Notes under the pieces: generated by a model
Seen by the model: the letters and a program-made list of their open reading frames with translations, nothing else
Told to the model about the DNA's origin: nothing
Databases searched by the model: none
Made by a program: the position numbers and the translations under genes
Source of the DNA: Naegleria gruberi
Taxonomy: Eukaryota
Assembly: GCA_000004985.1 (NCBI GenBank)
Contig: GG738855.1
DNA: 64,000 nucleotides
Reading direction: 5' to 3' (one strand)
Part shown: positions 902 through 55,060 of the stretch, piece after piece
Layout: each line of letters begins with the position of its first letter
Numbering within the stretch: the stretch's first letter is position 1

Positions 902-3157
902 TTAGAAAAAGTCGTTTGGATCGTCCCACTTATTATTATTGACACTGGGGTATAGATTACTCTTTGCTTTCTGTTCCTTTTCAAATTGAGTAAATGGATC
1001 TTCATCCAGATTCACATTACTAAATGTACCTGACGTACGACTTGGTTTGTGTAGACTTGTTGGAGTGGTGGAGACTGGTGTTGGTTGAAGAGGAGTACTG
1101 ACACTTTGTCTCTTGGTTGGTAAGCTTGGAGGAGGCTTTTCAGGTCTCTTTGGAAGTGGAATATTTGATTTTGGAACATTTGGTGAGGTTGTTGTGGTTG
1201 GGGTGGTTGGTTGTGTGAAGGTATTAACATTGGATTGTTGTGGTGCATAGGTTGGCAAGGAACGAGATGGAGGTGGAAGGAAACCTTTCTTTTTAGATTC
1301 TTCCTCAAAGGAATTGTATGGTTCTGCTACGAATGATGGAACTTCAGCCTCTTCTCCACCTGAGGAACTATTAAACTTTTGAATTCTTTGTTGTCTGAAT
1401 TGGTCAATTTGATCTCTGACATATGGTCCAATGTAGGTTGGATAGAGACCTATCATTAATTCACAAGTCTTGTTGATAGCTTGACTGTCCTTGGCCATTC
1501 TCATTGGATTGTTATCCATGCTCTTTAAAATATTTACACCAAACACAATCGAAAGGTTAGAAACTGTCATCTTATTTTCACTAGAGTGAGCAGCAACCTT
1601 TCCTAAAAAGACCATCAATTTATCCAACAGAGCAATATGTTCGATTGGTAATTGTTTAACCAACTCCAACATTCCATATCCAATTTGGCTCTCATCTTGT
1701 CTATGAATTAAACTGAGGAAGGAATCATACCTTTCATAGGTCAATAATGGTTCTGGTAATTCTCTCAAGAACATTTTAAGGAGACCAGCAACAACGTGAA
1801 TATCTTTGAATTCCTTATTGGTGATCATTGCTTGCAAGTCGAGATGTTTCTTACCATTGTCGTACATCTTTTTAACATAACTCATACCAACAACTTCACC
1901 AGCCAATCTGAAAATACCTTCCATAGTTAGACCATTCTTTTCAACATAATCAAAGAGATCAATACACATGTTTGGAACAACATCACGATTCAATTCTCTT
2001 TCTCTCTTCATGAGGGCTGTAAGAGCAACACCAAATACTTGTTTGTTTTCCTTTGGCTTTTTTGGCTTTGGTTGTTGATAGACTTGTTGTTGACTGGCCA
2101 CATTGTCCTTATAGTTAGTAATATCATTTACATCATAGTTACGCATGGCAGTTCTTGATTTACCAGTAATTAAATGGCTTGCCAATTCATCCAATGCTTG
2201 GGAACCAGCAATGAAATATGTTCTATAAACTGAAATAAATTGACGAATAGCATTCAAATATTGATAATCTCTCAATTCTTCTTGGTACTGCATTTCCTTC
2301 ATAATATTCTCGTGAACTTGAGCTGCTACCTTTTTCTTTTCTTCAGCATCCTTCTCTGCATTCTTAACCTTGACGAGATCATTTGACTTTTGTTTAAGAG
2401 TATTGTAACGAGTTTCATCGACATTGTGTTCAACAACTGCTTCTCTATAGTATTCCTTGAGATTTTTACAAGTATCACCTTCTTCCATTGATTCATGAAT
2501 TTTACTCAGTAAGATACTGGAAACATCGTTATTCATATTGCTTCTGAGTTCAGCCAAAACTTCCAAACAACATCCCAATTGATCAAACATGTTAAACATT
2601 TTGTTAACTTCAAGATTTGTATAGTAGGTCTTTGGAGGTGCAAATGATTCACCAGAAACATAATCCATTTTCAAGGTGGCTGCATATTCTTTGAATTGAG
2701 TTGCAATACCCAATTCGTCTTCAGAGTGAATTTGAGATGACTTGGTGAACTTTCTCAAAAGTTTATCCATTTCTTTGTAATGACCTTGTGTATCTTTGAA
2801 AACTTGATTGTTACGAACAAAATCGTCTGGATATTCAATTTCTTCTGCCTTTCCGATAGTTTTCATGATTTTATGTTTACCTGTTGAAATTGAAACAATT
2901 TAAATTATAAACACTAAAACATATTACATGAATTACATACCAACAGTTGTTGCCTTCTTCCAAAATGTTCCCATAACATTTGCACCACTATTTGTACTGG
3001 TACTCGATGCTGTGGCACTATTATTTTGTGAAGGATTTGAAGAACGAGGTGATGATGGTGAATCATCATTAAATTCATCAGATCCTGCACTGACATTATT
3101 ATAATTACTACTTCCAGCAGTACCTGTGGTTGGTTTTTTACCAAATATTCCCCTCAT
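902..3157 (-). CDS. BAR-domain RhoGAP (GRAF/oligophrenin-like architecture) with a Pro-rich tail. Exon 2 is 902..2880 and encodes the whole BAR+RhoGAP body. A probable 5' exon lies at 2941..3157, separated by a 60-nt GTATGT...CAACAG intron at 2881..2940.
   Basis: The RhoGAP core is recognizable (GIFRLAG, VAGLLKMFLRELPEPLL, NKMTVSNLSIVFGVNIL) after an N-terminal coiled BAR-like region. The C-terminus has PPxP repeats. The upstream exon joins in frame (…TTV-G|KHKIMKTIGK…). ATG at 3157 is preceded by an in-frame TAG. Confidence 0.8.
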
Positions 3158-11784: not shown

Positions 11785-14748
11785 CTATTGTTCTTCTTGT
11801 TTTGACACTTTGGCCATTCTCTTACTTTCCAATTCAGCTAGCCATGGAGCTTTTTGTTGTTGAGTAGCAGTGGTGTTATTGCCTTGTGGAATGGGTGGAG
11901 CTTCTCTTCTTATTAGAGTCTTTTTTCTTTCCTCAATGGTTTGTTGAAAGTCAGAGGTTCTTCTTGCTATTTGATTTCCCATAAACTCTTCAGGATTGGC
12001 AGGTGAGTTTTCTCCACTATTTGCCTGTTCGAAGGCGGATAAGGATTGTCTATTCTTGTTGAGGAATGGTGAAGTCTTTGTATGTTGATCATTTTGCAAG
12101 GATAACCTATTGCTTGGTGGCATCATTTCCCCAGCAGAAGCAATCTCAGATAGAGATGAGTGAATATTCTTCACTTTGTCCTCTGAGGAGAGATTATTCT
12201 TTGAGTTGGATGGTGATTGCTTCTTACCATTAAATATTTTGAGATCCATATTGAGAGCTTTGAGAGGGTTGAATCCTCTAGCTGAACGAGGTGATTTCAA
12301 AGATGAACCATCCTCTGAAATTGTGGAAAGGTCACTAATTGATGTAGATCTAGACATTCTGTTTCCATCAACCATTTGGCTTGACGCAGTATCGGCTGTA
12401 TCACTTGAAGCTGTTGTCTTACTATCATCACAACTTGCATCATCATCCAATGCTAGGGATCCAAATGTTATTTCATCCTCTGGAACAATATCACGTACAA
12501 CTGCATCCTTCTTTGGAATTTTGATTGTAACCTTGTCTCTTTGTGAATAGCACATATAGTATTCACTATTTTCAAAATCAATAATATACACATTTTGTTC
12601 ATTGAAAATTTTCTTAACTCTTGTATGAACTAGTTTGTTGGCTCTGAGCTCTTTGACTGGGCCTGCATTACAGCTTGTATTCTGGGATAGTTTGTCTATC
12701 CATTCATTACAAGCAATTGCTGTTGGACATGTAATTAAGTAGGTTACATCTTCTGTGACAATCTCGAAACTTTGTTTGTCATAGTCCAAGTCGAAATAAA
12801 TCCATGGATATTTGAAATATTCTACATTCATCTCATTCTTGAAATTAATGTGACACGAATATTTACCCTTCTTTGCGATTAAAACCATGTCATTCAAAAG
12901 AATGAGGGTTCTCTTATCTCCCTTCTTGATCTTTCTTCCCAATACAATTTCAGAAACAAGGAAATCTTCACCTTCCATAACAAAACATCTACTAGGTTTG
13001 ATAATACTTCCACCAATGTTTTCGTGAAGTTTTCCAATTGTTGTATCAATTTCATTCATCTTCATTTGATTTTGAACAACATTCATGGCACTATTGACGT
13101 GAGAGCTGACTTGTTTTGATAATTCTAGTGCTTCATTAATATTCTTGAAATCGTAATGAGTTTCTGGTGTATGCTTCAATAGCTCATTCAAAAGGAGAGT
13201 ATATCTCGGTAAACGTTGGACTGGCTGAATCATGTAGGAAAAGAAACCAACTTTACCCTGTTTTCTAGCATTTCTTTCCATTTCGTTCATATAGCTATCA
13301 AAACCAGGGTTTTCCTTCATCATGTCTTTAACTTTGCTTGCAATGTTATTGTAATTATTCACATAATCTGTATACACTTTGAACATTGGCATGGTTCTTT
13401 TAAAGAAGAGACCAATGGATTTGCTGGTGTCATCTTGTGTTTCAAAAGTAACATCAAGAGTTTTCCATTGTTTTAAAAATCCTTCATTGACACTCTTAAT
13501 AACTGTCATTTTGTCAAATATGAAACTCAAATCTTTCTGAGTAATAATTTGTTTAGAACCAGAAACTTGTGTAGCATTTCCCAAAGCTCTTAAAGGTTTA
13601 ATATAGAACCTTTCCAAATGATTCATTCCTTCAACATAATTCTCCTCGGTTTTAGAAATTTCCGCAATAACTTCCCATCTCAATTCCCTTCTTTCAATTT
13701 CCTTTTCCTCTGCTGTTTTAATTTTCTTTTGCGGAATTGGAGGTGGTGCCGATTTACCAGATCTATTAAAAGACTTGATGGAACCTTCTTCTTCCTCTTC
13801 TTCTTCCTCGTCATCTGATTCATCACAAGTTGACAACTTTTCACTGTGAGCTGAAGATGGAGGATTATTTGGTTCCTCTTGTGTTGGAGTCAAGACACGA
13901 TCCAGATCCAATTTGAAGGCATGTGTAGATTTTGTAGCAATGTCATTTTCATCATCCTTCTTCTCTTCACTTTTTGGTTCACTGGTAGGAGTGCTGACAG
14001 GTGTTGTTGCAGAACTAGTGGTGGGTTCAGTAGGTTTTGGAGGTGGAATTTTGTGCAAAATAGTCAGCACTTGTGGTGATTGTGCCTTTTCTTTGGATTT
14101 ACCATTACTGAATAGCTTACTTCCAATATTGAGAGTGGATTTTACGAATGAGCTCGTACTATTATTGCTGTTATTGCTAATTCCCTTTCCAACATTTATG
14201 GAGAGAGAAGAACCAGAAGTGACATCATCAACTTGACCACCAACCGATGATCGACCACCTCCAGAAAGATTATTATTACCACCAACCACTGAAGCAAACT
14301 GAATAACACCACCTGTTGAACGCTCAGAAGGGCTATTCACTGATGCAATGGTCTTTGATCGTACAGTAGGTCGTGGAGGAAGAGGAGGTGGTGGTTTTCT
14401 AGAACCACCAGGAGATGAAGGTGAATTATTTCCTCCTGCTACATTGTTTGTGGTGGGAGAGGAAGAAGCCGATGACGGTGAAGAGTTTGTATTTTTGTTG
14501 TTGTTGAGAGAATTGATGAGTGCCGTTGGAGGTGATGCATTGGGACGAAGTGTATAGGATCGAGAGGAGGATGTTGTTGTTGTTGTTCTGCTATTGTTGG
14601 TTGTAGCGATGGTTGGAGAGTCAGTAACGGTATTTGTTGTTATTGTTTCACTATTATTATTTACCAGTGGTGTTGTTGTTGTTGTTGTGATGAAAGAAGA
14701 TCGAGGAGGTTTTGGTGGAGGTACTGGAAGTTGTTTTGTTGAAGACAT
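11785..14748 (-). CDS. RhoGEF with DH and PH domains, flanked by long Ser/Thr/Asn/Pro-rich low-complexity regions
   Basis: DH domain signatures (IERRELRWEVIAEISKTEENYVEGMNHLERFYIKPL; FFSYMIQPVQRLPRYTLLLNELLKHTP) followed by a PH-like region. Confidence 0.85.
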   Translation of the reverse strand: MSSTKQLPVPPPKPPRSSFITTTTTTPLVNNNSETITTNTVTDSPTIATTNNSRTTTTTSSSRSYTLRPNASPPTALINSLNNNKNTNSSPSSASSSPTTNNVAGGNNSPSSPGGSRKPPPPLPPRPTVRSKTIASVNSPSERSTGGVIQFASVVGGNNNLSGGGRSSVGGQVDDVTSGSSLSINVGKGISNNSNNSTSSFVKSTLNIGSKLFSNGKSKEKAQSPQVLTILHKIPPPKPTEPTTSSATTPVSTPTSEPKSEEKKDDENDIATKSTHAFKLDLDRVLTPTQEEPNNPPSSAHSEKLSTCDESDDEEEEEEEEGSIKSFNRSGKSAPPPIPQKKIKTAEEKEIERRELRWEVIAEISKTEENYVEGMNHLERFYIKPLRALGNATQVSGSKQIITQKDLSFIFDKMTVIKSVNEGFLKQWKTLDVTFETQDDTSKSIGLFFKRTMPMFKVYTDYVNNYNNIASKVKDMMKENPGFDSYMNEMERNARKQGKVGFFSYMIQPVQRLPRYTLLLNELLKHTPETHYDFKNINEALELSKQVSSHVNSAMNVVQNQMKMNEIDTTIGKLHENIGGSIIKPSRCFVMEGEDFLVSEIVLGRKIKKGDKRTLILLNDMVLIAKKGKYSCHINFKNEMNVEYFKYPWIYFDLDYDKQSFEIVTEDVTYLITCPTAIACNEWIDKLSQNTSCNAGPVKELRANKLVHTRVKKIFNEQNVYIIDFENSEYYMCYSQRDKVTIKIPKKDAVVRDIVPEDEITFGSLALDDDASCDDSKTTASSDTADTASSQMVDGNRMSRSTSISDLSTISEDGSSLKSPRSARGFNPLKALNMDLKIFNGKKQSPSNSKNNLSSEDKVKNIHSSLSEIASAGEMMPPSNRLSLQNDQHTKTSPFLNKNRQSLSAFEQANSGENSPANPEEFMGNQIARRTSDFQQTIEERKKTLIRREAPPIPQGNNTTATQQQKAPWLAELESKRMAKVSKQEEQ

Positions 14749-22297: not shown

Positions 22298-24529
22298 ATG
22301 CCATTCTCTTTCCGCAAAAAGAGGAAAGCAGATGCTACTTCATCAACTGCCGAAATTGAACAAATAATAACAATTGACACACAACAACAAACAAACAATG
22401 AAAACGCCCAACCCAATTCCTCTCCATTACTAATGATGAGAGGTGAACCAAAGAAGAAAACACTTTCAAAATCTTCTTCCCATTCGTTTATTTCTTGGTT
22501 GACCCCTAGAAAGAAGACACAATCATCACAATCTATTTCGAATAATAATAACAACACTTCCCTAACTAGTATTGAAGATAATGCATCAACAATTCAACAA
22601 ACGCCAAAGACTCCTTCTACAAAATCACCAAGAAATTCGAAACTCGTCACATCACAATCAACAAGTTATATTATGGATCATGTAGAGAGACAAAAATCAT
22701 CAAACTTCTCTTCATCAATGCTTCCTTTGACGCCACTCAACAACAATAATTACGATAGTCAACGAAGTAAAATTAGAGTAGTAAAATCAGAGAAAACACC
22801 AAGAACATGTTCATCTCCAACCAGTGACGATGAATATCATTTAGGAATTAAACATTCCTTCACCATGTCTGTTATTTCTGATGAAAAGTCACCACGATTT
22901 ATTCTTTCAACACCCGATAATAATGCACAAGAGCTAGTATTTGGTAGTGCTGTTGAGAATATAATTTCAGATTATGATTCGGATGGTTTTTGTTTCTCTC
23001 CCCTTGTGGACGAAACTAGTCCATTCCAGGAGACTGCCAACAAGACTGCTTCGACATCCATCTTATCAGATGACCAGGCAGAAAAGGAAGTGGATGAGTA
23101 TGAAATTTTTGAAGAGTGGGCTAAACGATTTGATACCACAGAGCCATCATCTCTCTCTACAACTCAATTATCGACAAAGAAGAAGAGTGCCTCTTCCAGC
23201 TTTTCCAAACTCTTCAATGCAGTCTCACACTTGGATCCATTCATTCATATTCACCATACTACACCTTCACGGGGGAATAAGGTAAAATCACTCTCTCCAA
23301 AGAGTGCTACTACCAATGATTTATTCAATGATACAGAGACAGGAGGAGCTCTAATAATTAATGATGAACCAGCTCCAGATAGGGGAAGATTTAGTAGAAG
23401 TTTTAAAAATTTAATGATGGGAAAGAAATCTCCAGTGAATGGAGCTCTTTCTTCGTTGAGCCCTCGTCACGACAAGTCTCCTCCTCCTCATACAGTTGTA
23501 CAACACAGTCGTTTGCTTGTTATACTTCCAGATGAAATCAAGAGTCTCATATTTGAGTTTGCAGAATTTAAAGATATTCTCTCAATAAGGAGTGTCTGTA
23601 AAGAATTGAATGCCATCACAGACGATGACAGATTTTGGCAAAGAGTATGCTTTGAGTTGTCACTCGATTTTTCACAAGTAACCTACAAGCATTTGAAATC
23701 TCTATTCATTGAGAATCAACTTCATGTTACTTTGGCTGGTGATGAAGGAGTGGGAAAATCTCTCCTCATTCGTAGGTTAAGTAATAATCCTGCCTCTATC
23801 TTGGAAAGTAAAGGAGGAAGAAAGCAACTGTACGACTCAATGTATATGCAAGATGAGGAACCTTACTATATTTACTTTAAGGAGAACAATAAGTTTGACA
23901 AGTCACACAAAAAGAGCTCACGTAGGGAGGATGTGTACTTTGTCTGCTTTTCAATTTTGGATAAGAAATCTCTAAGCAGAACTAAGAAGGTATGTTTGGT
24001 ATAGCAATTATTAATCAAACTTACATATTATTTATATTACTATTAATGATGCATATATTTTATAATAACAAATACTAAACAGTGGATTAAGGCTATTCGT
24101 GCAAAAGACATAACTAAACCCATTATACTGGTTGGTCTAAAGGTAGATCTCAGAGACGAGGAAGGATCCGATCAATTCAAACTCATCAAGACTGAACAAG
24201 GCGAACAATTCAAGAATCGATTCAAACTCTTCTCCTACAGAGAGGTGAGTAACAAGACAAGAACTGGTCTTGAAGAGCTCATGCGTGATGCCATCAATGC
24301 CAAACGTATTCAAACAGAAAAGTTTTACAATTATGACAAGACACTAGGAACAGAAGCAGAAATGGAAGACATATCTGAAGATGTTTTCAATTATAGCGAT
24401 GAGGACGACATGGATTTAGATGGTTTTAATAGTGCACTCCCCACCAATACAGCGACAACATCCATAAGTAAGACAGCTACACTCTCCAAACGACTCTCAC
24501 AAATGAAAATCAACTTTGTTCTCGATTAA
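22298..24529 (+). CDS. Composite protein: long disordered Ser/Thr-rich N-terminus, an F-box, then a Rho-family-like small GTPase domain with degenerate G motifs. Exons 22298..23989 and 24083..24529, 93-nt GTATGT...AAACAG intron.
   Basis: F-box (LVILPDEIKSLIFEFAEFKDILSIRSVCKELNAI). G1 P-loop LAGDEGVGKSLLIRR. No DTAGQE or G3 motif. The second exon carries Rho-like motifs (WIKAIR…KPIILVGLKVDLRD; FKLFSYREVSNKTRTGLEELMRDAI) and has no CAAX tail. Confidence 0.7.
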
Positions 24530-24781: not shown

Positions 24782-25921
24782 ATGGGATTGAATCCATCCA
24801 AGATTTCTAAACACAACCGAGCAGAATTCGAATTCAACTATAAACCAAGATTAAATTCTGGAAGTGTTTCTAAGAAACATTCAATTCCAACCGATATTAT
24901 TCATGAGATTGCTTCGTTCATGACCTTAAAGGAGATTATTCACTCCTTCAGTTGTTTATCAAGGGGATTGCGTGGCAGATTCTTCCTCAATCCAACCTCT
25001 CCTCATTGGAAAATCATTAACCTTTCTGATGAAATTATGTTTGGTGATTTGCAAATGGAGAAAATAGTTCAAAATGGTGTTCTCATCCATTCAGAAATGA
25101 TAATTCTCAGAAGAACAAATGTAACTTCTTATTCCCTAAGAAAAATCACCAAGTTTTTAAAGAAGAATCCTGATAATAATCTTTCTCTCCTCGATGTTAG
25201 AGGTTGTTGTAAGGTTTCGAGATCTTCCAGCAAATTGCTTCAGAGAAGTAAGCCTTCCATTCAAATCAGAATGGAAACTAGATCTGACCACTTTGAATGT
25301 ACCTCCGAAACCATTGAGATGAGTAACAATATATTTTCAAATTCCAATTACTTTAATAGATTAACACAAGAGTCTGATAACAATATAATCTATTATGGAT
25401 TTGATGTAGCAAAATGTGCCTGTGACTATTGCTCTGCCTTTAATGTAAAGATGAAATTACTAATGGCTATCTATGGTCCCTATTATTTAGATGTGTTTGT
25501 TGGAAACTTTAAATATGACTTTTTTGAAAAAGCAAGCTCTTCAGCAAAGATTGATTGCTTTACTCCAACATTTGGTACCTCTAAATCATTCATTCCTACT
25601 GGTAATAGTCTGAATTATATTTTGAGAAAGCTTTGGAAGTACAGATTGGTCAAATCTGCCAACTTGGAATTGATCTATAGAAAATACACTCACAATCCTC
25701 TATTCATTGGTGAAGAAGAAATGAATTCATTGGAGTGTTTTTGTGACCGATATGGACCAATTATTGTATTGAGAAATGATGATATTGTAGTGATTGCAAC
25801 CATATGCAACTTGGGTGTTGTCTTTACATCATTTGATAAATTGACAAGCCTTGGAAATGCTATCAAGGCAAGCAGATTCCTCTCGTGCAACGCACATTAT
25901 GATTTGGTTGATATTGCTTAA
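24782..25921 (+). CDS. F-box-like protein with an N-terminal MGxxxS myristoylation-type motif (hypothetical)
   Basis: MGLNPSK N-terminus and an F-box-like IPTDIIHEIASFMTLKEIIHSFSCLSRGLRGRFF. Ends with TAA-TAA only 6 nt before the next ATG. Confidence 0.5.
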   Translation: MGLNPSKISKHNRAEFEFNYKPRLNSGSVSKKHSIPTDIIHEIASFMTLKEIIHSFSCLSRGLRGRFFLNPTSPHWKIINLSDEIMFGDLQMEKIVQNGVLIHSEMIILRRTNVTSYSLRKITKFLKKNPDNNLSLLDVRGCCKVSRSSSKLLQRSKPSIQIRMETRSDHFECTSETIEMSNNIFSNSNYFNRLTQESDNNIIYYGFDVAKCACDYCSAFNVKMKLLMAIYGPYYLDVFVGNFKYDFFEKASSSAKIDCFTPTFGTSKSFIPTGNSLNYILRKLWKYRLVKSANLELIYRKYTHNPLFIGEEEMNSLECFCDRYGPIIVLRNDDIVVIATICNLGVVFTSFDKLTSLGNAIKASRFLSCNAHYDLVDIA

Positions 25922-25927
25922 TAAAAA

Positions 25928-27196
25928 ATGACATCATTATCTACTCTGATTGGCTCGGTGGTTGAGTCAAAGAATACATCAGCACCATACTCAATTATTG
26001 CATTATCATCATCATGTGATTCCATCTCCATTGAGGATATTTGTGGCAATCTGAATAAATTAAAGAAGGATCATGAGGCAACAGCCAAAGCATGTCTCAA
26101 AGCAAAGAAAGATAAAACAAGCCTTCACAAATTGACCGAACAACATTCGGAAGAAATTCAAAAACTTAAACCTTACATTGATCAACTAATTCAAAACAAG
26201 TTGAAATTAGAACAAAAGATCTTTGATTTACAATGGACAAGGCAATTTAAAGAACAAGAATTGGCTAGAGCAAAATCCGAAATATCAGATGAATCATCCA
26301 TCAATGAAGCCTTAATTGACTCGTATGAAGTTTCTCTCCAATCCATTCATGATGAATTACTCCTCTTCAAATCTCGAATGGAAGAATCAACAAAGATGAA
26401 AGAACACCTCTCCGAAGAAATTCTTAGACAAGGCAATATCTTTTCATCCCAATGTCAGGAGAAGAGAGGAAAGGAGGTTGAATTGAGAGAAAAGATGGAA
26501 GAAACACATCACCTTCATGAGCTGTTGGATTCTCTTGAGGAAACATACACTGCTCTGTTGAAGGAGAATGTTAATCGAACTTCCAGTTCTAATCAATCAC
26601 CACACTCAAAATCCAATGAAAAGCTATTGCTAATTGAACAACAAAAGTACTCCGATCAATTGAAGAATATCAACAACGAATTGAGAGAGTTGAGACAAAA
26701 GAAGCAATCTCTCGCTCAACAAATTGATTCCAAGAAGAAACTTAAAGAAGCCATGAATGAAGAGTTGAAGAATCTAGCAAGGGAATTGAAAAGTAAGGGC
26801 ATTGGTAACAATTCAGACACAAGAAGGGTAGCTGAGAATAGCTCTGCAGCAGATTTGACAAGCCCATTCTCTAATCATTTTTCTGCACCAAAAACTCCTG
26901 CGCCTTCAGCTCAAAAGTTTTCATTCAAGAGAACTGTAGTCAATCACGACCCTCAAAAGATCTCAGCAACAACTCCAGATATCAGACTTCTCAAGAGAAA
27001 AACCTCCCCAAACGAAAATGTAATTGATAATGCTAATCAGAACAACAATTCTTCCCGTGTCGACATTTCATCCTTTGCTTATAAGAAGAATGATTTCAGA
27101 AAGGCCTCTGATATTAACAGTGTCAGTAATTCCTCAAACAATAGTAGCAGCAGCACTCCGACAACCTACACATTCAAAAAGTTGAAAAAAGACTAG
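25928..27196 (+). CDS. Coiled-coil protein (hypothetical)
   Basis: 422-aa ORF dominated by heptad-repeat segments (KLKLEQKIFDLQWTRQFKEQELARAKSEI…) and a Ser/Asn-rich tail. Confidence 0.5.
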   Translation: MTSLSTLIGSVVESKNTSAPYSIIALSSSCDSISIEDICGNLNKLKKDHEATAKACLKAKKDKTSLHKLTEQHSEEIQKLKPYIDQLIQNKLKLEQKIFDLQWTRQFKEQELARAKSEISDESSINEALIDSYEVSLQSIHDELLLFKSRMEESTKMKEHLSEEILRQGNIFSSQCQEKRGKEVELREKMEETHHLHELLDSLEETYTALLKENVNRTSSSNQSPHSKSNEKLLLIEQQKYSDQLKNINNELRELRQKKQSLAQQIDSKKKLKEAMNEELKNLARELKSKGIGNNSDTRRVAENSSAADLTSPFSNHFSAPKTPAPSAQKFSFKRTVVNHDPQKISATTPDIRLLKRKTSPNENVIDNANQNNNSSRVDISSFAYKKNDFRKASDINSVSNSSNNSSSSTPTTYTFKKLKKD

Positions 27197-27217: not shown

Positions 27218-28930
27218 TTAGAATGAGAAGTGTCTAGCCACAATTGAATTCTCACCATACTCATCAAATTCATCCTTTGTAACACACATGTTGTCAAATG
27301 TACTCAAGGACATTAAGATGTTGGCTCCTAATAAAATGGAGTCCTCTCTATTCTTATTAATATTGACTGTTACCGTTTCAGCTCGCAATGACTTGGTTAA
27401 TTCTGATTGAGTGAGTTTCTTTTCCAATTCTGTAGAGAATCTCTCAGGTAAACCTTGGAAATTTGATGACCCTCCACAAACAACAAGGTTATTCAAGCTT
27501 GTCAATACCATTTCCTCATCCATAGATTCCAAACTCTCAATAACTGAATTTTGAATGCTTCTTCCACACCAAGATTCATAATATTGCTTATCAATAGATA
27601 AGTCAAAGAAAAATTCTGTACAATCTCCCAATATACCCTCTGATTCTGTTGGAATTCTCAAAATATTACCATCTGGAAGGTTGAAAACTGGTGCAGTATC
27701 ATTTTTTCTATCTTTCGAATGTACTTTCGTATAACAAAGTTTCTCCTTAATAGATCTCAAAATCTCCTTTTCTGAACTTGTAGCAAACTTTAAATTGACA
27801 GTATCCAAACATTGATTTTTCAAAAGCATTGCTTGTAATACTTCCTCAACTGAATGACCACCAAAAGGAATGGCCTTCAATGAATTCCATACAGGCATTC
27901 CTTCATAGACTGGCAATACTGTTGTGAATAACTCTCCCATATCAATAACCATACCACTTGTTTTACCAATACTGAAAATTGGCAAGACATGATCAAGAGA
28001 TAGATACATTTTCTCATAATTCCAACTATCGAATGCATAATGAACGAGTTTCTCCTTCAAAGTTACATCTCTGTACAAGTAGAAAGGTAAAGCAGTGAAG
28101 AGACATTTAGGAGAATTTTGAGAGTTGACTCCTCTAATAAATTCAGCAACTTTCTTCTCCAACATTTGTTCACAATAGGATACAATTGGTTCAGTGTATG
28201 ATGTTGGTTGCTGTTTTGTCTTGAATGGAAAATCAATACGTTCAGAGACAATATACTGATCGAAATACTTTTTTAGCGGATAATTAAGTGTACTAATTGA
28301 CCTTTGTTCCAAACATTCATTTCCAAAGGTTTTCAAATCTTGTCCTCTCATCTTACTTTCAAAATCATGATTTCTATCCTTTCTATTCGCAATAACAGTT
28401 GCTTGATTCATCAATCTAATCTCATTTCCATCTCTACTCATTGAAATTTTAGTATTTTGAGCACCAATTGACCAAAATACTTTCACTTGATCACTTTCTT
28501 TCAAAATCTTTTCCGAAAATCTTTCCTTTACCAACAAATCTTGTCCCTTTTTCAATTTCTCCAAGAATTTACCATCATCATTTCTATCAACACTCCCGAG
28601 AGTAGCAGCTTGATTTAAACTCTTTCCCTTTCTATCATTCAAATCACTCCACTTTAATTGTTGCAATGCCGTTGTTGGATCACCCTTTCCCAATTTGACT
28701 TTAAATTGTGTTGTATGTTTGTTTGAAAATGATTCCCTATTTGCTTCTTCGCTGGTTCGTTGGGCAATTTTCCTCTGCAATGAGACAATTTTATTGATAA
28801 TGATGAGGGAGAGGATGGAAACTACAATGGTCGAAAATGATAAAAAGATTAACAGATTTGGAGTTAATCCGTAGGCATCGAGGCCATAGTCATGAATGGA
28901 TTCTGCAATGGCTTGTCTCCAAATGTCCAT
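27218..28930 (-). CDS. Divergent actin-related protein with an N-terminal hydrophobic signal-anchor/TM segment and large insertions
   Basis: Actin-fold signatures in the C-terminal half: GMVIDMGELFTTVLPVYEG; VVCGGSSNFQGLPERFSTEL; LGANILMSLSTFDNMCVTKDEFDEYGENSIVARHFSF (compare the actin C-terminus [28 protein letters not shown]). The N-terminus has a ~23-residue hydrophobic stretch (LLIFLSFSTIVVSILSLIIINKIV). Confidence 0.7.
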   Translation of the reverse strand: MDIWRQAIAESIHDYGLDAYGLTPNLLIFLSFSTIVVSILSLIIINKIVSLQRKIAQRTSEEANRESFSNKHTTQFKVKLGKGDPTTALQQLKWSDLNDRKGKSLNQAATLGSVDRNDDGKFLEKLKKGQDLLVKERFSEKILKESDQVKVFWSIGAQNTKISMSRDGNEIRLMNQATVIANRKDRNHDFESKMRGQDLKTFGNECLEQRSISTLNYPLKKYFDQYIVSERIDFPFKTKQQPTSYTEPIVSYCEQMLEKKVAEFIRGVNSQNSPKCLFTALPFYLYRDVTLKEKLVHYAFDSWNYEKMYLSLDHVLPIFSIGKTSGMVIDMGELFTTVLPVYEGMPVWNSLKAIPFGGHSVEEVLQAMLLKNQCLDTVNLKFATSSEKEILRSIKEKLCYTKVHSKDRKNDTAPVFNLPDGNILRIPTESEGILGDCTEFFFDLSIDKQYYESWCGRSIQNSVIESLESMDEEMVLTSLNNLVVCGGSSNFQGLPERFSTELEKKLTQSELTKSLRAETVTVNINKNREDSILLGANILMSLSTFDNMCVTKDEFDEYGENSIVARHFSF

Positions 28931-36218: not shown

Positions 36219-39200
36219 TTACTTCTTTTTGGCTTTCTTTGACTTTCCAGTCTTCTTGGCATTCTTTCTCTTCTTTGATTTAGGTTCCTCTTCCTCTGGT
36301 TCTTCCTCAGAGTATTCTTCAATATCATCATGTTCTTCCTCAGAGCACTCTTCAATATCATCTTCGTCTATTTCTTTCTTTTGAGATTTTTGAGAGAAAA
36401 GAACTGGTGAGCTAGGGGTTGGTGAACGGTCTGTCTTCTTCTTTTTTGAGGTCTTCTTTTTCTTTGGGGAACCCTTCTTATTAGAGAGACCTTGTTTTAA
36501 ATTTCTCAATTCCTCATCAATATTTTCCAATTCACCCTGAATTTCTTCAATTTCGCTCTTGTGTTTTTCAATAGTTTCTTCCTTTTGCTGTTCAGTTTGG
36601 GCATATTCTCCCTTCTCGAAAGCAATTGTTTCTCTGAGTACTTTCTTATACTCTTCAACCTTCTTCTTCTTTTCTAGCAGTAGTTTGACTTCAGGATTTT
36701 CGCTGAGTGGAGTTTGACCAAAACGGAAAACTGGTGGACCTGTAGCCTTAGAACCAGCATATACGATACCAGTTGCTTCAATTCTCTCTCCATCAAGTGT
36801 TAGAATCAATGGGACTGCTAAATTAATTTCCAGTCTCTTTTTTCTGAATGCCAAACCAGTAAGGAATGTTTCAAAAACTAAACTACTACCTAATAAATTC
36901 CAAAATGCATGTCTAATCATTTCTCGTCTAATGTCTATTTCTATCAGATTTACAGAATAGCCAACAAATCCATCTGCGTCAATTGGATCCAATCTCAATC
37001 TACCTTCATTATCCATACCTTTTGAACATTTCTGGATATTATCGAGGGGTAAAACTGGTATCTTGTGAGGGAAATTTTCTAGGAGTCGTCTCACTTTTTC
37101 CATACCATTAGAATCTTGTACAACAATACATTGCATCTTATCTCCCAAGAACCTAGAAATTGTGTCATTGTGCTTTTCATTATCTATATAACCTAGCTCT
37201 CCAAGAATTCCCACAATTCCACTATCTGTTTCCTTTTGGAGTTGTTTTACTTTCTGCAAGGCCTTGTTTTCCGCAAGGCCAACATTGCACTCTTTTTGTT
37301 TTCTACTGTTCTGTGTCTTGATCTCTAACTTCTTTTTAAGAATATTCAATAGTTTGTCAGCATTTTCCATATTTGGCATATCATTTTCGAAGTTCAATTC
37401 ATATTCTTTGATTGTTTTCAGTATATCATTCATTGTGGATCTGAAATTACTAAGCTTGAATTCATTCTCTTGGTGATTTTGCTCGGCTTTCTTAATTTCC
37501 TTCTTCAGATAATCTAGTTCACTGAGACAATTTTGTTTCTTCTCTTGGAGTTCCTTCTCAATTTGTTGAATAGCACTGTTATCAGTAAATCCAAATTCTA
37601 ACTCTTTTGGTGGAAGATTTTTAGTTGTAAAAACTAGCTTATACAAACCAGTTTCACCTGATCCCTCCTTTATGCTAACTCTTGAAAACTTGGCACGACC
37701 ATTCTCAAATTTAGCTACTAAATCCCCTTCTAGCTCAGGAAGTTCACTGTCCATGCTATCTTCTGTTGGTTGAATGGAAAGAGTGACCTTTTTAATTTTA
37801 TCATCGGCAATCACAGTATTGGAATACTTGTCTATCACTTTGAGTGAAAGTTCTTCCCAGAATGATCTTGCATCAATATTTTCTCCCATATTGGTAACTA
37901 CAGGAAGCTGGAATTTATCATTTTCTATTTCCAAAGCTTCCGGATCTCCAGGGGAGACAGCAATATCTAGAGTAGTGTTTATACTCCCATTCAGTCCAAG
38001 AATTGGAACATATGGCAATGAAGAAATGTCCAAAGTAAATCTATATCTGTAAACTCCGGATTTAGTAAATTCTTTTTCACTATTTGCGAATGTATATGTT
38101 AAACTCTTGGAAGCAGATGGGCATGATATGAATTGCCTTTTATCTCCTCCTTGAGGGTTTGCTACTTCCATAATGATTGAATTTGGAGCCTTAACAGGTT
38201 TTCCACTTTCTCCCAAAACTACAACTTCAAAAGGGTCTAAAAAGTCTCCCACCACAAGATTTGTTGTCTTATTGGTAACCTTGAGTTCTGCTGGATGGGA
38301 GCTCTTGATAATATTTACAATAAAGCAAGTCTTGTTTGCCTTTGTTAACTCGTATTCAATCCAGAAAGTATGTCTTCCCTCTGTACCTTTAACCCAAAAT
38401 TGTGGCATATAGGCTCTTCCATTTTCAATTTGTAAATCGATGGACTGATTGACTTCTCCTTGATATTGGATAATTTCAATATCAGTCTCTGGAGGTTCAA
38501 TCTCAAAGTTTCCATGTTGATGTATTACGTTACCAAACTTATCGTGTGTTGTAATGTAAAATGATGGAGTAAGATTATAATTTTCAACATCGAATACTAC
38601 CTCTCCTATCATGTCATTAACTCTCAAAGACACTGGTGGTCCTGGTTCAAGGAGAATATTTTCAATTTTACCCTCTTTGATTTTACCTCCCTTGTCAATA
38701 ATCTTCAAATGGAATTCTCCAGAAGGGCCTATCAAGCTTACATCATTATATTTAAAAAATTTAAAGTGTTCATGGTCATCCAATCCTGTTAGGAGTCGTA
38801 GTTTGTCGAAATCACAAATTTCAATACTTTCTGCTTCACCATTCAATTGAGAAACTATTTCAATTGAAGGTTCAATATTCTCAAGTTCTGGATAATTTTC
38901 ATTACTCTCGTTATCCATCCTATTTCCAAATGCATCCATAATACTGAACTTAACACTGAACTTTTGTTCACATTTAAGTTTTTCAGGTATTGACTTTCTC
39001 TCTATTTTAAATATGCATGGAGGCCCTGTTATGACACGTAAATTAATGGTAAAGTTTGCTATTATCATATCTGTGTCAATATCATCATCGTTCTGTACGG
39101 AATCTCCTGCTGCTTTGGAGAGTATATCGACAAAATATTTAGTAGTTTTAAAAATTTGTGGAACTACTAGAGTTGGTAATTCGCAAATACCTTTTTTAAC

Positions 39201-42200
39201 TTCTAAAAGATTGGCTTTACACCATGAAGCTCTGGCGTATGCATCAATCTCTATCCTTTCGTACATTTCATTGCATAATTCCAAATTCCATCCAACTAGT
39301 TCTGAACTGACTATTGCATTCACTGTTACTTTAAGTGCAGATCTCTCCTTGATCATATTCTTTTCCTCAGTGGTTCTAGTTAGGAGGTTAAATGAAGAAG
39401 GTTTTGCAACTGAAGCTGATTCAATAGTAAGTGGAACATCAATGCAAATATCTTGGTAACTTAGTGTTATATATGCCTCTTTTCGTTGAGAACTACTTTG
39501 AGAGCTTCCTATAGCTATATTTTTGAATTGGAAATAACCAGTTTCAGTATTAAAGGTACCAGAAGCTTCTTCTTTCAAACATTCTCCTTTTACGGTTATG
39601 GTGAGAGGGGTAAAGTCATCTTCACCATCATAAAAACATGGAATGTAGATTTGATTATTTTTCTCATCCAGTAATTTGGCCTCAATATCTGGTAGAATTT
39701 TCTTTACAGAGTTTCCTGACAAGGCAGTAGCTGCATCTTCAGAAAGTTGAATAGTGTGAACGGCTCCAGCAAATATCACCATATCAATTTCAAGAGGTTG
39801 CATAATTAGACCAAATGCTATCACTAATTTTGTTTTTACAAACTTGTTGGAACCTAATGGAGCACTTTTAACAACAAGCTCAGTAATTTCTATTTGATTG
39901 CTATTGTTGAAGGAGGCCTTAAATGAGGATAGTTCTACGGTATCATCAGTTGTTGTAATTTTAAGTTCTTCCGTAATGTTACAAGTTGTCTCTTTGAAAG
40001 GAACAACATTACCATACGTGTCTTGTTGTTCAATGATTAGTGTGGGGAATGGTTTGTCAATAAAGGTTAAAAGGGAATCCTTGAGTTGACTCTTATCTAA
40101 AAGAGATTTGGCACCTTTAACTTTTGGTAAATTGTTGGAAAGTGACAGAGTGGATGGCGCCGCAGCAGTTACATCAATTTTTACCACCTTTGCTTTGATT
40201 CCACTGTCCTCAGAAGAGGATAATTCCAAAATATAAGTACCCACAGATGTAAATTCTGGCTTCAGCTTGTAAGGCTTGAAGCAATGCACTCCTTTTTTAA
40301 AAGCCTTTGTTGAAGTGAGTGACTCATTAAGTTTTTGTTCTTCTTCATTATCACCTTCATAGGTTATGGTCAAAGTAACTGGGTAGAGTTGGTTTGTCAC
40401 AACCTTGTGATCTCCTGTCATTATACAAGCCGACAGGTATTTGAGAGAATATCCAGCTGTAACAGCGTCAGGTGGTGGTCTTCTCTCTCTTGCAGTAACA
40501 TTTGGTGTATCTACAACATCTATATAGCTCGGTAGCTTATTTTTCATTTTGCTGACTTCAGCTTTAAACTCTTGCTTGGTGAGAAGGTTTTGTACTTTTG
40601 ATATTGGAAAGCACTGTCCATTCTTTGAATCATCTGACTCCTTTTCAGGTGACCATTCCTTAACTACAATAGTTACAGAGTATTCTTCTGATGACATGTC
40701 CCTAAACATATCAACAAGAGTTCCAATAATTTTAGGTCTAGTTTTCATGACTAGATAATCTCCAATGGAATAATTTGTTTGTCCGTATTTGATCTTTTTG
40801 TAGAATGTTTTCATACCCTTTCCTTCTTTTTGAGTTCTTTCGAAATCACATTCGTCAAAAATTATTTCTTCATCTAATTTTTTGTGGCATTCCTTAATCC
40901 ATTTTCTATACCTCTGTGTCAAGTTTCTTTCGCTGTAATTTAAAAGTGCTTGACAGAGTGCTGTTTGTTTGCAAAGGTACATTTTGTTGGCCGATACTTC
41001 AAAATTAGAATCAAAAAAGAGCATTCCCTTAATTCTTCTATAGCAATTTTCTGGAATATCCCTATTACTTCTTTCCTTCTCCATAAAAGGTAAATTTTTG
41101 ATTTTTTCATTAGCTAACAGTCTACCATTCCAAAAGCATTCAAATCCAGGATTTCTTTCGCTCAGAGGTACTTCTTGGTCAGTAGGAATATATTTTCCTC
41201 CTTCCAAATATAATTCTTCTGGTATTGGAAGAGTTTCTCTTCCTTGTTTGAAAGGATAGTAATAAATTATTCCTCTCACTGTGCTATTAATTATCGACAC
41301 TCCATATTGGGATGATGTTGGCAGGGTCATTTCAGGCGCGTTCAAATTTTCTCCATTTTTGACACTGAGTTTGATTTCAAAAGTGAACGGTGACTTTCCC
41401 TCCTGAAGATATAATGTTTCCATGTCCTTGTCTTCATTCGATATGGCTGTGCCATCTACTTTCATTATGACATTTTTAGGTTGCTTTAATTGCCATAAAT
41501 CGTCTTCATCAATTGAGGGCATCTTTGTTTTCTTTTGAGACTTGATTGGTGGCATTTCTTCCTCCTCTCCTTCGGAAAGATCATCAATATCACTCATGTT
41601 ATCATTTTCATCAGGATCTTCAATAATATCTCTTCCTTCCTTATTACCATCAGTTCCATGTATATAATAGTGATAGATGTGGCCTAAACGCTTCTTGATA
41701 ATTGCTGGATCATATCTATCGACATAGACCTTCTTAATGTCCGAAATTGTAAAGTGAGTAAAGCTTTCCCATTGTTTTTCTGTATCAGTTGGAGGTCTAG
41801 AAATACAATTGGCTTTCCATTGTTTGTCTTTTCCTGAAGTAAAATCTTGCTCCAACTTTTGCCTTGAAAGGGAAACTTCATAAACAAATCTTGAATCTTT
41901 TGGTTTTGAGACAAGAGTGACTTCATCTCCCAAGTTGAAAATGGCCTTCTTGGAACCTACACCATACCTGGAAAAGTCTGACGTAACAAATTTATCAAAA
42001 AACCTTCTGCGGAGTGGTGCCTTTTCTCTTGTTGGCAACTTGGAATCATCAACTGGGGCTTCAGTAATACCAAGAGTAGCCCAATTGACTAAGGTTTTAA
42101 AATTCATTCCTCTTCCATTATCCCAAATATGGAGCTTGCTTGTAAGTTCATTACTCTGTGTAGGCTTTTCAAATCGAATTTCGATAAGCCTTTCATTCTT

Positions 42201-43037: not shown

Positions 43038-43142
43038 TTTATTCTTGTGTTTGTTGGAATACCAACGAGAAATATTTTGGCGCCAAATCTTTAAAGATAA
43101 AAATACAGATCTCGTAACTAATGCCATGTTATTGGAAACACC

Positions 43143-54987: not shown

Positions 54988-55060
54988 CTCCCCCTGGTGG
55001 GCTCGAACCACCGACCTGCAGATTAACAGTCTGACGCTCTACCGACTGAGCTAAGGGGGA
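54988..55060 (-). tRNA. tRNA-Asn (anticodon GTT)
   Basis: Reverse complement gives TCCCCCTTAGCTCAGTCGGTAGAGCGTCAGACTGTTAATCTGCAGGTCGGTGGTTCGAGCCCACCAGGGGGAG. It has a 7-bp acceptor stem, D-arm GCTCAGTCGGTAGAGC, anticodon loop CTGTTAA, T-arm GGTGGTTCGAGCCCACC, and a T6 terminator 4 nt downstream on the minus strand. Confidence 0.9.

What the first reader, a model, noticed from the sequence alone, without database searches (positions are those of the whole stretch)
22298..24529. F-box fused to a degenerate Rho-like GTPase domain
One two-exon gene encodes a ~400-aa disordered Ser/Thr-rich N-terminus, then a clear F-box (LVILPDEIKSLIFEFAEFKDILSIRSVCKELNAI), then a small-GTPase fold. The GTPase has an intact-looking P-loop (GDEGVGKS) and Rho-type distal motifs (PIILVGLKVDLRD; FKLFSYREVSNKTRTGLEELMRDAI). 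However, it has no DTAGQE/G3 motif, no recognizable switch I Thr, and no CAAX box. F-box proteins normally pair the F-box with substrate-recognition modules (LRR, WD40, Kelch). A Rho-like, possibly nucleotide-binding but catalytically dead G-domain as the substrate-binding module would be an unusual SCF adaptor architecture. A second F-box-like gene lies immediately downstream (24782..25921) and a third at 44155..45399.
Basis: partly seen in the sequence, partly recalled or inferred. Interest (0 to 1): 0.7.

Follow-up and report, generated by a model that had tools for sequence, protein, structure and literature searches.

The report
Naegleria F-box protein with dead Rho domain
This is a real two-exon Naegleria gruberi gene that joins an F-box (a ubiquitin-ligase docking motif) to a Rho-type GTPase domain lacking its switch and catalytic motifs, but the gene and its domain architecture are already listed in a published Naegleria GTPase survey, so it is uncharacterised rather than new.

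Summary

The P-loop (GDEGVGKS) and the guanine-specificity motif (LKVD) are intact. The switch I Thr, the DxxGQ motif and the CAAX box are absent. The same pattern occurs in all seven homologues aligned: N. fowleri, Willaertia, Acrasis and sequences from unidentified eukaryotes. An invariant NNPxxxxES motif sits where switch I should be. This is therefore a conserved, selected heterolobosean family, not a decaying copy or a gene-model fusion.

The architecture is not new. Herman et al. 2021 (BMC Biol 19:142, Table S8) list this accession as 'Rac, F-box', alongside at least ten other F-box Rho proteins, and propose GTPase-dependent ubiquitination.

My best reading, which is inferred, is an SCF substrate receptor whose binding module is a Rho-derived domain that binds nucleotide but cannot switch, analogous to RhoBTB-Cul3. 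The downstream gene (24782..25921) is an F-box protein. The claimed third one (44155..45399) is below threshold.

The parts
22298..23989 (+). Exon 1 (codons 1-564): N-terminal region, F-box, linker and the first half of the G domain
   Evidence: ORF listing and translation. The spliced product is identical to XP_002679999.1.
23990..24082 (+). Intron, 93 nt, phase 0, GTATGT...AACAG
   Evidence: Read-through gives a stop after 4 codons. N. fowleri has an intron at the same position and phase (102 nt, GTAAGT..TATAG). In a 99.6%-identical N. gruberi strain the intron carries 3 substitutions in 93 nt plus an indel, against 6 in 1692 nt for exon 1 (Fisher p=0.009).
24083..24529 (+). Exon 2 (codons 565-712 plus stop): second half of the G domain and the acidic/Ser-Thr tail
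   Evidence: The junction sequence ...TKK|WIKAIRAK matches Willaertia ...CKK WIKTIRTK.
22298..23497 (+). N-terminal region of about 400 aa: low-complexity, Ser/Thr-rich, with islands conserved among Naegleria species (MPFSFRKKRK, SFISWL, SPRFILSTP, CFSP, EEWAKRFD, TGGALIIND..GRFSRSFKNL)
   Evidence: Composition, alignment, and no Pfam domain. The single-sequence AF2 model was uninformative.
23522..23653 (+). F-box (residues 409-452, ILPDEIKSLIFEFAEFKDILSIRSVCKELNAITDDDRFWQRVCF)
   Evidence: Pfam F-box-like E 2.4e-11 and F-box E 7.3e-08. L410, P411 and W447 are invariant in the family. The best PDB sequence matches are FBXW7, FBXO3 and SKP2. The model shows a helical bundle.
23654..23716 (+). 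Conserved helical linker between F-box and G domain (residues 453-473, ..LDFSQVTYKHLKSLFIENQ)
   Evidence: Alignment A1; helix 61-70 in the model.
23717..24328 (+). Rho-type G domain (residues 474-646), interrupted by the intron
23738..23761 (+). G1 / P-loop, GDEGVGKS (481-488), intact
   Evidence: G481, G486 and K487 are invariant in 7/7 family members, and position 488 is Ser or Thr.
23783..23809 (+). Family-specific invariant motif NNPxxxxES (496-504) at the position of switch I; the canonical Thr is absent
   Evidence: N496, N497, P498, E503 and S504 are invariant in 7/7. No Thr aligns with Rac1 T35. The adjacent segment has pLDDT below 50.
23873..23896 (+). Degenerate G3 / switch II position, YFKENNKF (526-533), where Rho proteins have LWDTAGQE
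   Evidence: No family member keeps the Gly or Gln of DxxGQ. The model block that follows it (full-length residues 533-542) has pLDDT 55.
24137..24148 (+). G4, LKVD (583-586); Lys and Asp of [NT]KxD retained
   Evidence: K584 and D586 are invariant in 7/7.
24248..24259 (+). G5-equivalent, SNKT (620-623), where Rho has SALT or SAKT
   Evidence: Alignments. Ser or Cys is kept but the motif is variable across the family.
24338..24526 (+). C-terminal tail (650-712): an acidic stretch, then a Ser/Thr-rich end, with no CAAX box
   Evidence: Sequence. No family member ends in CAAX, whereas the canonical Rho hits do.

Best explanation
The feature is the Naegleria gruberi gene XP_002679999.1 (UniProt D2V7I2). 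It belongs to a conserved heterolobosean family of F-box proteins whose C-terminal module is a Rho-derived G domain.

Shown here:
- One gene with a conserved intron.
- A canonical F-box, then a helical linker, then a small-GTPase fold closest to Rho, Rac and Cdc42.
- G1 (GxxxxGK[ST]) and the Lys and Asp of G4 are invariant.
- The switch I Thr, the DxxGQ of switch II (gamma-phosphate-sensing Gly and catalytic Gln) and the prenylation box are absent in every member.
- An invariant NNPxxxxES motif replaces switch I.

Inferred:
- The F-box docks the protein on Skp1 in an SCF (Skp1-Cul1-Rbx1) ubiquitin ligase.
- The G domain probably still binds a guanine nucleotide as a structural cofactor, but it can neither hydrolyse it nor undergo the loaded-spring switch.
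- It therefore acts as a constitutive (pseudoGTPase) protein-recognition surface that presents partners for ubiquitination. Those partners may be proteins that normally read Rho GTPases.
- The soluble, non-prenylated protein would be tuned through the conserved short motifs of its Ser/Thr-rich N-terminus.

This matches the 'GTPase-dependent ubiquitination' idea of Herman et al. 2021 and parallels RhoBTB-Cul3.
For: Identity and gene model:
- The spliced product equals XP_002679999.1.
- The intron position is conserved in N. fowleri and the intron evolves faster than the exon between strains.
- The F-box and the whole G domain lie in one uninterrupted ORF in two other eukaryotic contigs.

Domains:
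- Pfam F-box-like E 2.4e-11 and Ras E 2.1e-15.
- PDB sequence hits are all Rho family.

Selection:
- 25 invariant columns persist at 28-31% overall identity between Naegleria and Acrasis or the unidentified-eukaryote members. They include LP and W of the F-box, G..GK, NNP..ES and G.K.D.R.
- The family is narrow. Only 16 hits at E<=1e-3 came from 1.84 billion representative proteins.

Motif loss is uniform in the family.

Literature:
- The same accession is listed as Rac plus F-box, and F-box is the commonest extra domain on Naegleria GTPases (PMC8296547 supplements).
- RhoBTB proteins are Cul3 substrate adaptors built on an atypical Rho domain (PMC4931677; PMC3812982 abstract).
Against: - No experiment or expression data were available. 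Skp1 binding, nucleotide binding and substrates are all inferred.
- The invariant Ser504 lies about where the switch I Thr should be, and Glu or Asp sits at the D57 position. A non-canonical Mg2+/gamma-phosphate contact, and hence some switching, cannot be excluded.
- The AF2 alignment contained canonical Rho proteins, so the fold match is not independent of the sequence similarity.
- Model coordinates could not be inspected, so pocket integrity and F-box/G-domain packing were not examined.
- F-box proteins can act outside SCF complexes.
Confidence: 0.5

Rival explanations
1. Self-regulated atypical Rho. The G domain is the signalling part, constitutively 'on' or nucleotide-locked like Rnd and RhoH. 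The F-box serves mainly to couple the protein's own abundance to SCF-mediated auto-ubiquitination, so activity is set by turnover rather than by a GTP/GDP cycle.
For: This idea was proposed for the F-box of TbFRP, which is rapidly processed and turned over (PMC3593210). RhoBTB proteins are themselves substrates of the ligase they build (PMC4931677). Loss of the catalytic Gln with P-loop and NKxD retained is the pattern of GTPase-deficient Rho proteins (my own knowledge of Rnd and RhoH).
Against: With no CAAX box in any member, the protein lacks the usual membrane targeting of a signalling Rho. Switch I, the effector-binding face, is replaced by a family-specific motif. Auto-ubiquitination and substrate-receptor function are not mutually exclusive.
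Confidence: 0.22
2. Still a working molecular switch. Non-canonical residues substitute for the lost ones (invariant Ser504 for the switch I Thr, Glu528/Asp at the D57 position, perhaps an arginine or asparagine supplied in trans). SCF substrate capture would then depend on the nucleotide state.
For: Invariant E503-S504 lies 16 residues after the P-loop Ser, against 18 residues between T17 and T35 in Rac1. D or E is retained at the DxxG Asp position in most members. G1 and G4 are invariant. Herman et al. speak of 'GTPase-dependent ubiquitination'.
Against: The DxxG glycine and the catalytic Gln are missing in all seven members. Both switch regions are the only low-confidence parts of the G-domain model. 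No GTPase is known to me that switches without both the Thr and the Gly contacts.
Confidence: 0.13
3. Skp1-dependent but cullin-independent role. This would be, for example, a trafficking or cytoskeletal complex like yeast Rcy1-Skp1, with the Rho-like domain acting as a scaffold.
For: Non-SCF F-box/Skp1 complexes exist (my own knowledge: Rcy1, RAVE, Ctf13). Nothing in the sequence distinguishes SCF use from non-SCF use.
Against: There is no positive evidence. Most F-box proteins tested assemble SCF.
Confidence: 0.1
4. Artefact: a gene-model fusion of an F-box gene with a neighbouring Rho pseudogene, or a decaying paralogue without function.
For: One N. fowleri annotation splits the orthologue into two genes, FDP41_008235 and FDP41_008234. 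Naegleria GTPase families show birth-and-death evolution.
Against: The F-box and the first half of the G domain lie in the same exon. The FDP41 split falls in the N-terminal region, not between the F-box and the G domain. The whole F-box-G unit is one uninterrupted ORF in L001 and L002. Invariant family-specific residues across Naegleria, Willaertia and Acrasis argue for purifying selection. Changes between strains in exon 1 are 4 synonymous to 2 non-synonymous.
Confidence: 0.02

Closest known systems
Naegleria F-box Rho ('Rac ... F-box') proteins catalogued by Herman et al. 2021 (BMC Biol 19:142, Table S8); N. fowleri orthologue Rac35 / NfowleriV212_RP55
   Same: It is the same gene. [quoted passage not shown]
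   Different: The paper only tabulates the domain combination. Three points are additions made here: the uniform loss of G2, G3 and CAAX; the NNPxxxxES motif; and the presence of the family in Willaertia, Acrasis and unidentified eukaryotes. Several other F-box Rac paralogues in that table keep a CAAX box and a more Rho-like G3 (for example DTSGAD or DTAIHE), so this gene is a distinct, more derived subgroup.
RhoBTB proteins (Cul3 substrate adaptors; metazoa, Dictyostelium, Naegleria)
   Same: An atypical Rho-type G domain is fused to a cullin-RING-ligase adaptor module. RhoBTB1 and RhoBTB2 lack a CAAX box. The proposed role is recruiting substrates for ubiquitination, with the G domain regulating or contributing to binding (PMC4931677; PMC3812982).
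   Different: The adaptor module here is an F-box (Skp1/Cul1), placed N-terminal to the G domain. In RhoBTB it is tandem BTB domains (Cul3) placed C-terminal. No BTB domain was detected here. RhoBTB2 still binds GTP and RhoBTB3 is an ATPase; nucleotide use here is unknown.
TbFRP (FYVE-F-box-GTPase of Euglenozoa)
   Same: An F-box lies directly upstream of a Ras-superfamily G domain in another lineage of Discoba. [quoted passage not shown]
   Different: [quoted passage not shown] The authors found no orthologue in N. gruberi. Here there is no FYVE domain and the G domain is Rho-like. The two are most likely independent fusions.
GTPase-deficient or pseudo-GTPases of the Ras superfamily (Rnd1-3, RhoH, kappaB-Ras, CENP-M, p190RhoGAP pseudoGTPase domains)
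   Different: None of these carries an F-box. Assigning this domain to a pseudoGTPase class (nucleotide-free or nucleotide-locked) needs biochemistry.
Canonical Rho/Rac/Cdc42
   Same: Best sequence and structure matches (24-30% identity over the structural alignments), a TKxD-like G4 followed by DLRD, and a partial Rho insert.
   Different: There is no switch I Thr, no DTAGQE and no CAAX. The Rho insert is 6 residues shorter. The protein also has a 470-aa N-terminal extension containing an F-box.

Membership tests
F-box proteins (Pfam PF12937 / PF00646) | An F-box motif of about 45 residues scoring above the curated threshold | tested here: met
   F-box-like 43.6 bits (cut-off 24.3), covering profile positions 3-46 of 47. 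F-box 32.5 bits (cut-off 20.5).
F-box proteins (Pfam PF12937 / PF00646) | Conserved Leu-Pro start and hydrophobic/Trp core positions | tested here: met
   L410, P411 and W447 are invariant in 7/7 family members. The region aligns to the FBXW7 F-box.
F-box proteins (Pfam PF12937 / PF00646) | Binds Skp1 and assembles an SCF ligase | not testable with these tools
   Needs pull-down, yeast two-hybrid or complex prediction with Naegleria Skp1.
Rho family of the Ras superfamily | Ras-type G-domain fold, closest to Rho, Rac and Cdc42 | tested here: met
Rho family of the Ras superfamily | G1 P-loop GxxxxGK[ST] | tested here: met
   GDEGVGKS at 481-488, conserved in 7/7.
Rho family of the Ras superfamily | G2: switch I Thr (Rac1 T35) | tested here: not met
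   No Thr aligns. NNPxxxxES is present instead.
Rho family of the Ras superfamily | G3: DxxGQ (DTAGQE) in switch II | tested here: not met
   FKENNK in N. gruberi. The Gly and Gln are absent in all 7 members.
Rho family of the Ras superfamily | G4: [NT]KxD | tested here: met
   LKVD. K584 and D586 are invariant. The first position is Leu, Met or Thr.
Rho family of the Ras superfamily | Rho insert helix between beta5 and alpha4 | tested here: inconclusive
   The insert is 6 residues shorter than in Rac1 and RhoA but 7 longer than in HRas. Short helical elements are predicted there.
Rho family of the Ras superfamily | C-terminal CAAX prenylation box | tested here: not met
   The protein ends ...KINFVLD. 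No family member has CAAX, while the canonical Rho hits do.
Naegleria F-box Rho GTPases (Herman et al. 2021, Table S8) | Listed accession, with Rho-family G domain plus F-box | tested here: met
   The window product is identical to XP_002679999.1, which is listed as 'Rac ... F-box'.
RhoBTB | Tandem BTB domains C-terminal to the Rho domain | tested here: not met
   No BTB hit in Pfam at E<=1.
TbFRP (FYVE-F-box-GTPase) | N-terminal FYVE domain and a Rab-like G domain | tested here: not met
   No FYVE hit. The G domain is closest to Rho. The authors report no N. gruberi orthologue.
PseudoGTPases | G-domain fold with one or more G motifs lost | tested here: met
   G2 and G3 are lost with the fold retained.
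PseudoGTPases | Lack of nucleotide hydrolysis (and/or of binding) | not testable with these tools
   Needs nucleotide-binding and GTPase assays on recombinant protein.

The most novel reading that the evidence does not exclude
The family is a Heterolobosea-wide SCF receptor in which a nucleotide-locked, switch-less Rho mimic acts as bait for proteins that normally read Rho GTPases (GEFs, GAPs, GDIs or effectors) and marks them for degradation. Alternatively, its F-box/Skp1 engagement is gated by the G domain in the way RhoBTB gates Cul3. Either would be a second, independent invention of a Rho-scaffold cullin-RING adaptor.
Probability: 0.2. Interest if true: 0.6.

Novelty: already known. Interest (0 to 1): 0.3.

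Why it matters
If the inferred mechanism holds, evolution would have twice converted a Rho G domain into the recognition module of a cullin-RING ubiquitin ligase: RhoBTB-Cul3 and F-box-Rho-SCF. It would also support the published suggestion that Naegleria wires many GTPase-fold proteins directly into ubiquitination.

The family is conserved in the pathogen N. fowleri (Rac35). The representative search found it only in Heterolobosea and unidentified eukaryotes. It is therefore a lineage-specific regulator that could be studied.

As a genome-scan finding it is modest. The gene and its domain pairing are already catalogued. What this analysis adds is:
- the family-wide loss of the switch machinery;
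- the NNPxxxxES signature;
- the wider heterolobosean distribution;
- a confident fold model.

Tried and rejected
- Two homologous-protein searches with the spliced F-box plus G-domain sequence timed out.
- A third search with the exon-1 piece found nothing, although the protein is in the collection. The word index evidently misses this family. The exhaustive HMMER search and a profile search recovered it.
- Single-sequence AlphaFold of the full 712 aa gave pLDDT 31.6 and was discarded.
- The afdb50 fold library was unavailable. I could therefore not survey AFDB for the same two-domain architecture in other taxa.
- The top hit of the representative search (P0001, a 7950-aa trematode protein with 65 matched stretches) is a tandem-repeat artefact that sums weak chance matches, not a homologue.
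- The neighbouring F-box gene's product is not on record in the contig index.
- Literature searches for 'pseudoGTPase' with 'F-box' returned nothing.
- I considered and rejected a gene-fusion artefact, a decaying pseudogene, membership of RhoBTB and orthology to TbFRP. Reasons are in the rival explanations and the membership table.
Full report
**What is at the coordinates**

The window is about 35% G+C and densely packed with long ORFs on both strands. This fits a compact protist genome.

At 22298 an ATG opens an ORF that runs to 24004. A GT at 23990 and an AG at 24081-24082 bound a 93-nt AT-rich segment. Removing that segment joins codon 564 (..SRTKK) in phase 0 to WIKAIRAK... and gives a 712-aa product ending at 24529.

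The product is identical, residue for residue, to N. gruberi XP_002679999.1 / EFC47255.1 / UniProt D2V7I2, annotated 'rho family small GTPase'.

**Is the splice real?**

No cDNA could be consulted, but three lines of comparative evidence support it.

- In N. fowleri (locus L004) an intron sits at exactly the same codon boundary..CKTKK | GTAAGT...TATAG | LIREIRAK, 102 nt.
- A metagenome contig from a 99.6%-identical N. gruberi strain (L003) keeps the GT and AG. It shows 3 substitutions plus an indel in the 93-nt intron, against 6 substitutions (4 synonymous, 2 non-synonymous) in the 1692 nt of exon 1. Fisher p = 0.009.
- The protein sequence across the junction is conserved in Willaertia magna (..RRCKK WIKTIRTK..).

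That cannot apply as stated, because the F-box, the P-loop and the first half of the G domain are all in exon 1. In two further eukaryotic contigs the F-box and the entire G domain form one uninterrupted ORF: L001, a 55-kb JGI metagenome contig, and L002, a 1.1-kb Logan contig.

**Domains**

- Pfam finds F-box-like at residues 409-452 (E 2.4e-11, 43.6 bits against a cut-off of 24.3) and F-box (E 7.3e-08).
- Pfam finds Ras at 478-636 (E 2.1e-15, 57.1 bits against 21.6) and Roc (E 5.2e-07).
- Against PDB sequences, the 60 best matches to the C-terminal 310 aa are all Rho-family proteins. They include Arabidopsis ARAC7 (4e-11), a Naegleria fowleri Rac (5vcu, 1e-10), and Rac1, Cdc42 and RhoA.
- The F-box segment alone finds FBXW7, FBXO3, SKP2, FBXW24 and FBXO31. 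Each match is weak but they are consistent.
- The first 400 residues have no Pfam domain. They are 17% Ser and 9.5% Thr, and S+T+N+P+K make up 48%.
- These residues are not featureless. Several short islands are conserved among Naegleria species, and partly in Willaertia: MPFSFRKKRK, SFISWL, SPRFILSTP, CFSP, EEWAKRFD and TGGALIIND..GRFSRSFKNL.

**Structure**

Single-sequence AlphaFold failed (pLDDT 31.6).

With a 23-sequence alignment (nine family sequences, one other F-box GTPase, and database Rho proteins), residues 403-649 gave mean pLDDT 83.3 and pTM 0.79. The model has a helical F-box, a linker helix and a six-strand, five-helix G domain with core pLDDT above 90.

The only poorly defined parts of the G domain are model residues 102-106 and 131-140. 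These are the switch I and switch II positions.

- Foldseek against the PDB: the top 50 are all RhoA, Rac1, Rac3 or Cdc42. The best E is 3.5e-13, with TM about 0.77 on the target.

One caveat is that the alignment contained Rho proteins, so this result is not independent of the sequence similarity.

**G motifs**

I aligned the family with Rac1, RhoA and HRas. The same conclusions follow from the database Rho proteins.

| Motif | Canonical | This protein | Across the family (7 members) |
|---|---|---|---|
| G1 | GxxxxGK[ST] | GDEGVGKS | G, G and K invariant |
| G4 | [NT]KxD | LKVD | K584 and D586 invariant |
| G5 | SALT / SAKT | SNKT | variable elsewhere |
| G2 | switch I Thr | none; NNPxxxxES (496-504) instead | N, N, P, E and S invariant |
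| G3 | LWDTAGQE | YFKENNKF | Gly and Gln of DxxGQ absent in all; the Asp is kept only in the unidentified-eukaryote members (WDNN, NDSN) |
| CAAX | present in canonical Rho hits | absent | absent in all |

The Rho insert is present but 6 residues shorter than in Rac1 and RhoA. It is 7 residues longer than the same region in HRas.

**Family and distribution**

An exhaustive HMMER search of 1.84 billion representative proteins with the exon-1 piece (F-box plus half of the G domain) gave only 16 hits at E<=1e-3.

- The top one (P0001) is a tandem-repeat artefact.
- The real ones are N. gruberi; N. fowleri (CAG4719720.1, 854 aa, split in another annotation into FDP41_008235 and FDP41_008234); further Naegleria-like contigs (P0005, P0007); Willaertia magna KAL9647572.1; and Acrasis kona KAL0486944.1.
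- Unnamed eukaryotic sequences from metagenome and SRA assemblies also belong (P0008, P0009, P0010; later P0023 and P0024).
- Naegleria, Willaertia and Acrasis are all Heterolobosea: Tetramitia.
- At 28-31% identity between the extremes, 25 columns remain invariant. They cluster in the F-box, the P-loop, the NNP..ES motif and G4.

This is the signature of a functional, selected family. It is neither a decaying paralogue nor an annotation fusion.

**What is already known**

Herman et al. 2021 (BMC Biol 19:142; PMC8296547) curated the Ras superfamily of N. gruberi and N. fowleri.

- I counted at least 11 N. gruberi 'Rac' entries with an F-box in the part of the table I read, some with additional Kelch or BTB domains.
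[quoted passage not shown] - A different F-box-GTPase fusion, TbFRP (FYVE-F-box-Rab-like GTPase), is described for Euglenozoa. Its authors report no N. gruberi orthologue (PMC3593210).

It is genuinely rare outside these lineages, but it is published, including for this very gene.

I did not find three things stated there: the uniform loss of the switch machinery, the NNPxxxxES signature, and the presence of this subgroup beyond Naegleria. I searched the supplement only for the terms listed and read one part of Table S8.

Several other F-box Rac paralogues in the table keep a CAAX box and a more canonical G3. This gene therefore belongs to a more derived, soluble subgroup.

**How it most likely works**

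Shown: the domain order, the motif status and the conservation.

Inferred from established knowledge of F-box proteins and of the G-domain mechanism:

- The F-box docks on Skp1 in an SCF ligase.
- The G domain keeps the phosphate-binding loop and the guanine-specificity Lys and Asp, so it probably still holds a guanine nucleotide.
- Without the switch I Thr and the switch II Gly it cannot sense the gamma-phosphate. Without the Gln it cannot catalyse hydrolysis.
- It is therefore best seen as a pseudoGTPase that offers a fixed binding surface centred on the invariant NNP..ES motif, where effectors would normally bind. That surface would present partners to the ligase.

The closest functional analogue is RhoBTB. 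There an atypical Rho domain is fused to the Cul3-binding BTB module. The protein is both an adaptor and a substrate of its ligase, and the G domain gates cullin binding (PMC4931677; PMC3812982).

The rivals are self-turnover of a constitutively active atypical Rho, a non-canonical but still functional switch (the invariant Ser504 is the residue to watch), and a non-SCF Skp1 complex. A gene-model artefact is effectively excluded.

**Side claims and surroundings**

- The gene 252 nt downstream (24782..25921) narrowly passes Pfam F-box (22.4 bits against 20.5) and has an unassigned C-terminal part.
- The gene at 44155..45399 reaches only 14.5 bits, E 0.036, when its N-terminus is scanned alone. 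It should not be called an F-box gene on this evidence.
- These two genes are unrelated to each other outside the F-box-like stretch.
- The window also encodes a Dbl-type RhoGEF and a RhoGAP. Given how many such genes Naegleria has, that is not evidence of a functional cluster.

**Verdict**

Novelty is 'already known'. Interest is 0.3, for a conserved, uncharacterised Rho-scaffold F-box family with a clear and testable hypothesis.

Noticed in passing
window 24782..25921 (+): The immediately downstream single-exon gene (379 aa) has a marginal but above-threshold Pfam F-box (residues 34-64, 22.4 bits against a cut-off of 20.5). Its roughly 300-aa C-terminal part has no family assignment. The exact product is not on record in the contig index.
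   Followed up: partly
The N-terminus (LLSKILLFCDCKTVLHSIPYVCKSWANL) looks F-box-like by eye. It scores only 14.5 bits (E 0.036) when scanned alone and gives no F-box match in the full-length scan. It has no similarity to the 24782 gene beyond that stretch.
   Followed up: yes
window 36219..43127 (-): A 2302-aa single ORF with the SMCHD1 architecture: GHKL-type ATPase (HATPase_c_3, E 5e-10), SMCHD1 S5-fold domain (E 6e-45) and a C-terminal SMC hinge (E 2e-08). An SMCHD1-like protein in a heterolobosean may be of interest for the evolution of this chromatin-silencing family.
   Followed up: no
window 51929..54337 (-): An Argonaute-type gene (PAZ E 3e-21 and Piwi E 8e-35).
   Followed up: no
window 54988..55060 (-): A tRNA-Asn(GTT) gene lies about 650 bp from the Argonaute-type ORF at 51929..54337.
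   Followed up: no
window 902..2866 (-) and 11785..14748 (-): A RhoGAP-domain protein and a Dbl-type RhoGEF-domain protein lie in the same 64-kb window as the F-box Rho gene. This is probably coincidence, given the very large Rho-regulator complement of Naegleria.
   Followed up: no
window 25928..27196 (+) and 27218..28930 (-): Gene spacing is very tight. A 422-aa ORF with no significant Pfam match starts 7 nt after the stop of the F-box gene at 25921. On the opposite strand, an actin-related protein (Pfam Actin E 4e-44 over residues 289-566) carries an N-terminal extension of about 285 aa without a domain hit.
   Followed up: no
L004 (N. fowleri contig), just after the codons for ..YIENQ of the orthologue: N. 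fowleri has an extra short GTATGT...TTTCAG intron between the linker and the first strand of the G domain. It is retained in frame in CAG4719720.1 (inserting GMFESTIWSGYNVIS) and spliced out in XP_044558243.1. Another N. fowleri annotation splits the orthologue into two genes (FDP41_008235 and FDP41_008234) within the N-terminal region. Public N. fowleri models of this gene are therefore inconsistent.
   Followed up: partly
hit P0001 (Calicophoron daubneyi, 7950 aa): The top hit of the exhaustive HMMER search is a tandem-repeat protein. Its 65 weak matches to query residues 93-155 add up to E 1.9e-106. It is an artefact of summing repeats, not a homologue.
   Followed up: yes
hits P0031 and P0032 (JGI metagenome proteins): Other GTPase-ubiquitin-ligase fusions appear in environmental eukaryotes. 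P0031 has a Rho-like G domain followed by BTB and U-box domains. P0032 has an F-box followed by a Rab-like G domain with an intact WDTFGQE motif. The theme of small GTPase folds fused to E3-ligase modules seems broader than Naegleria.
   Followed up: no
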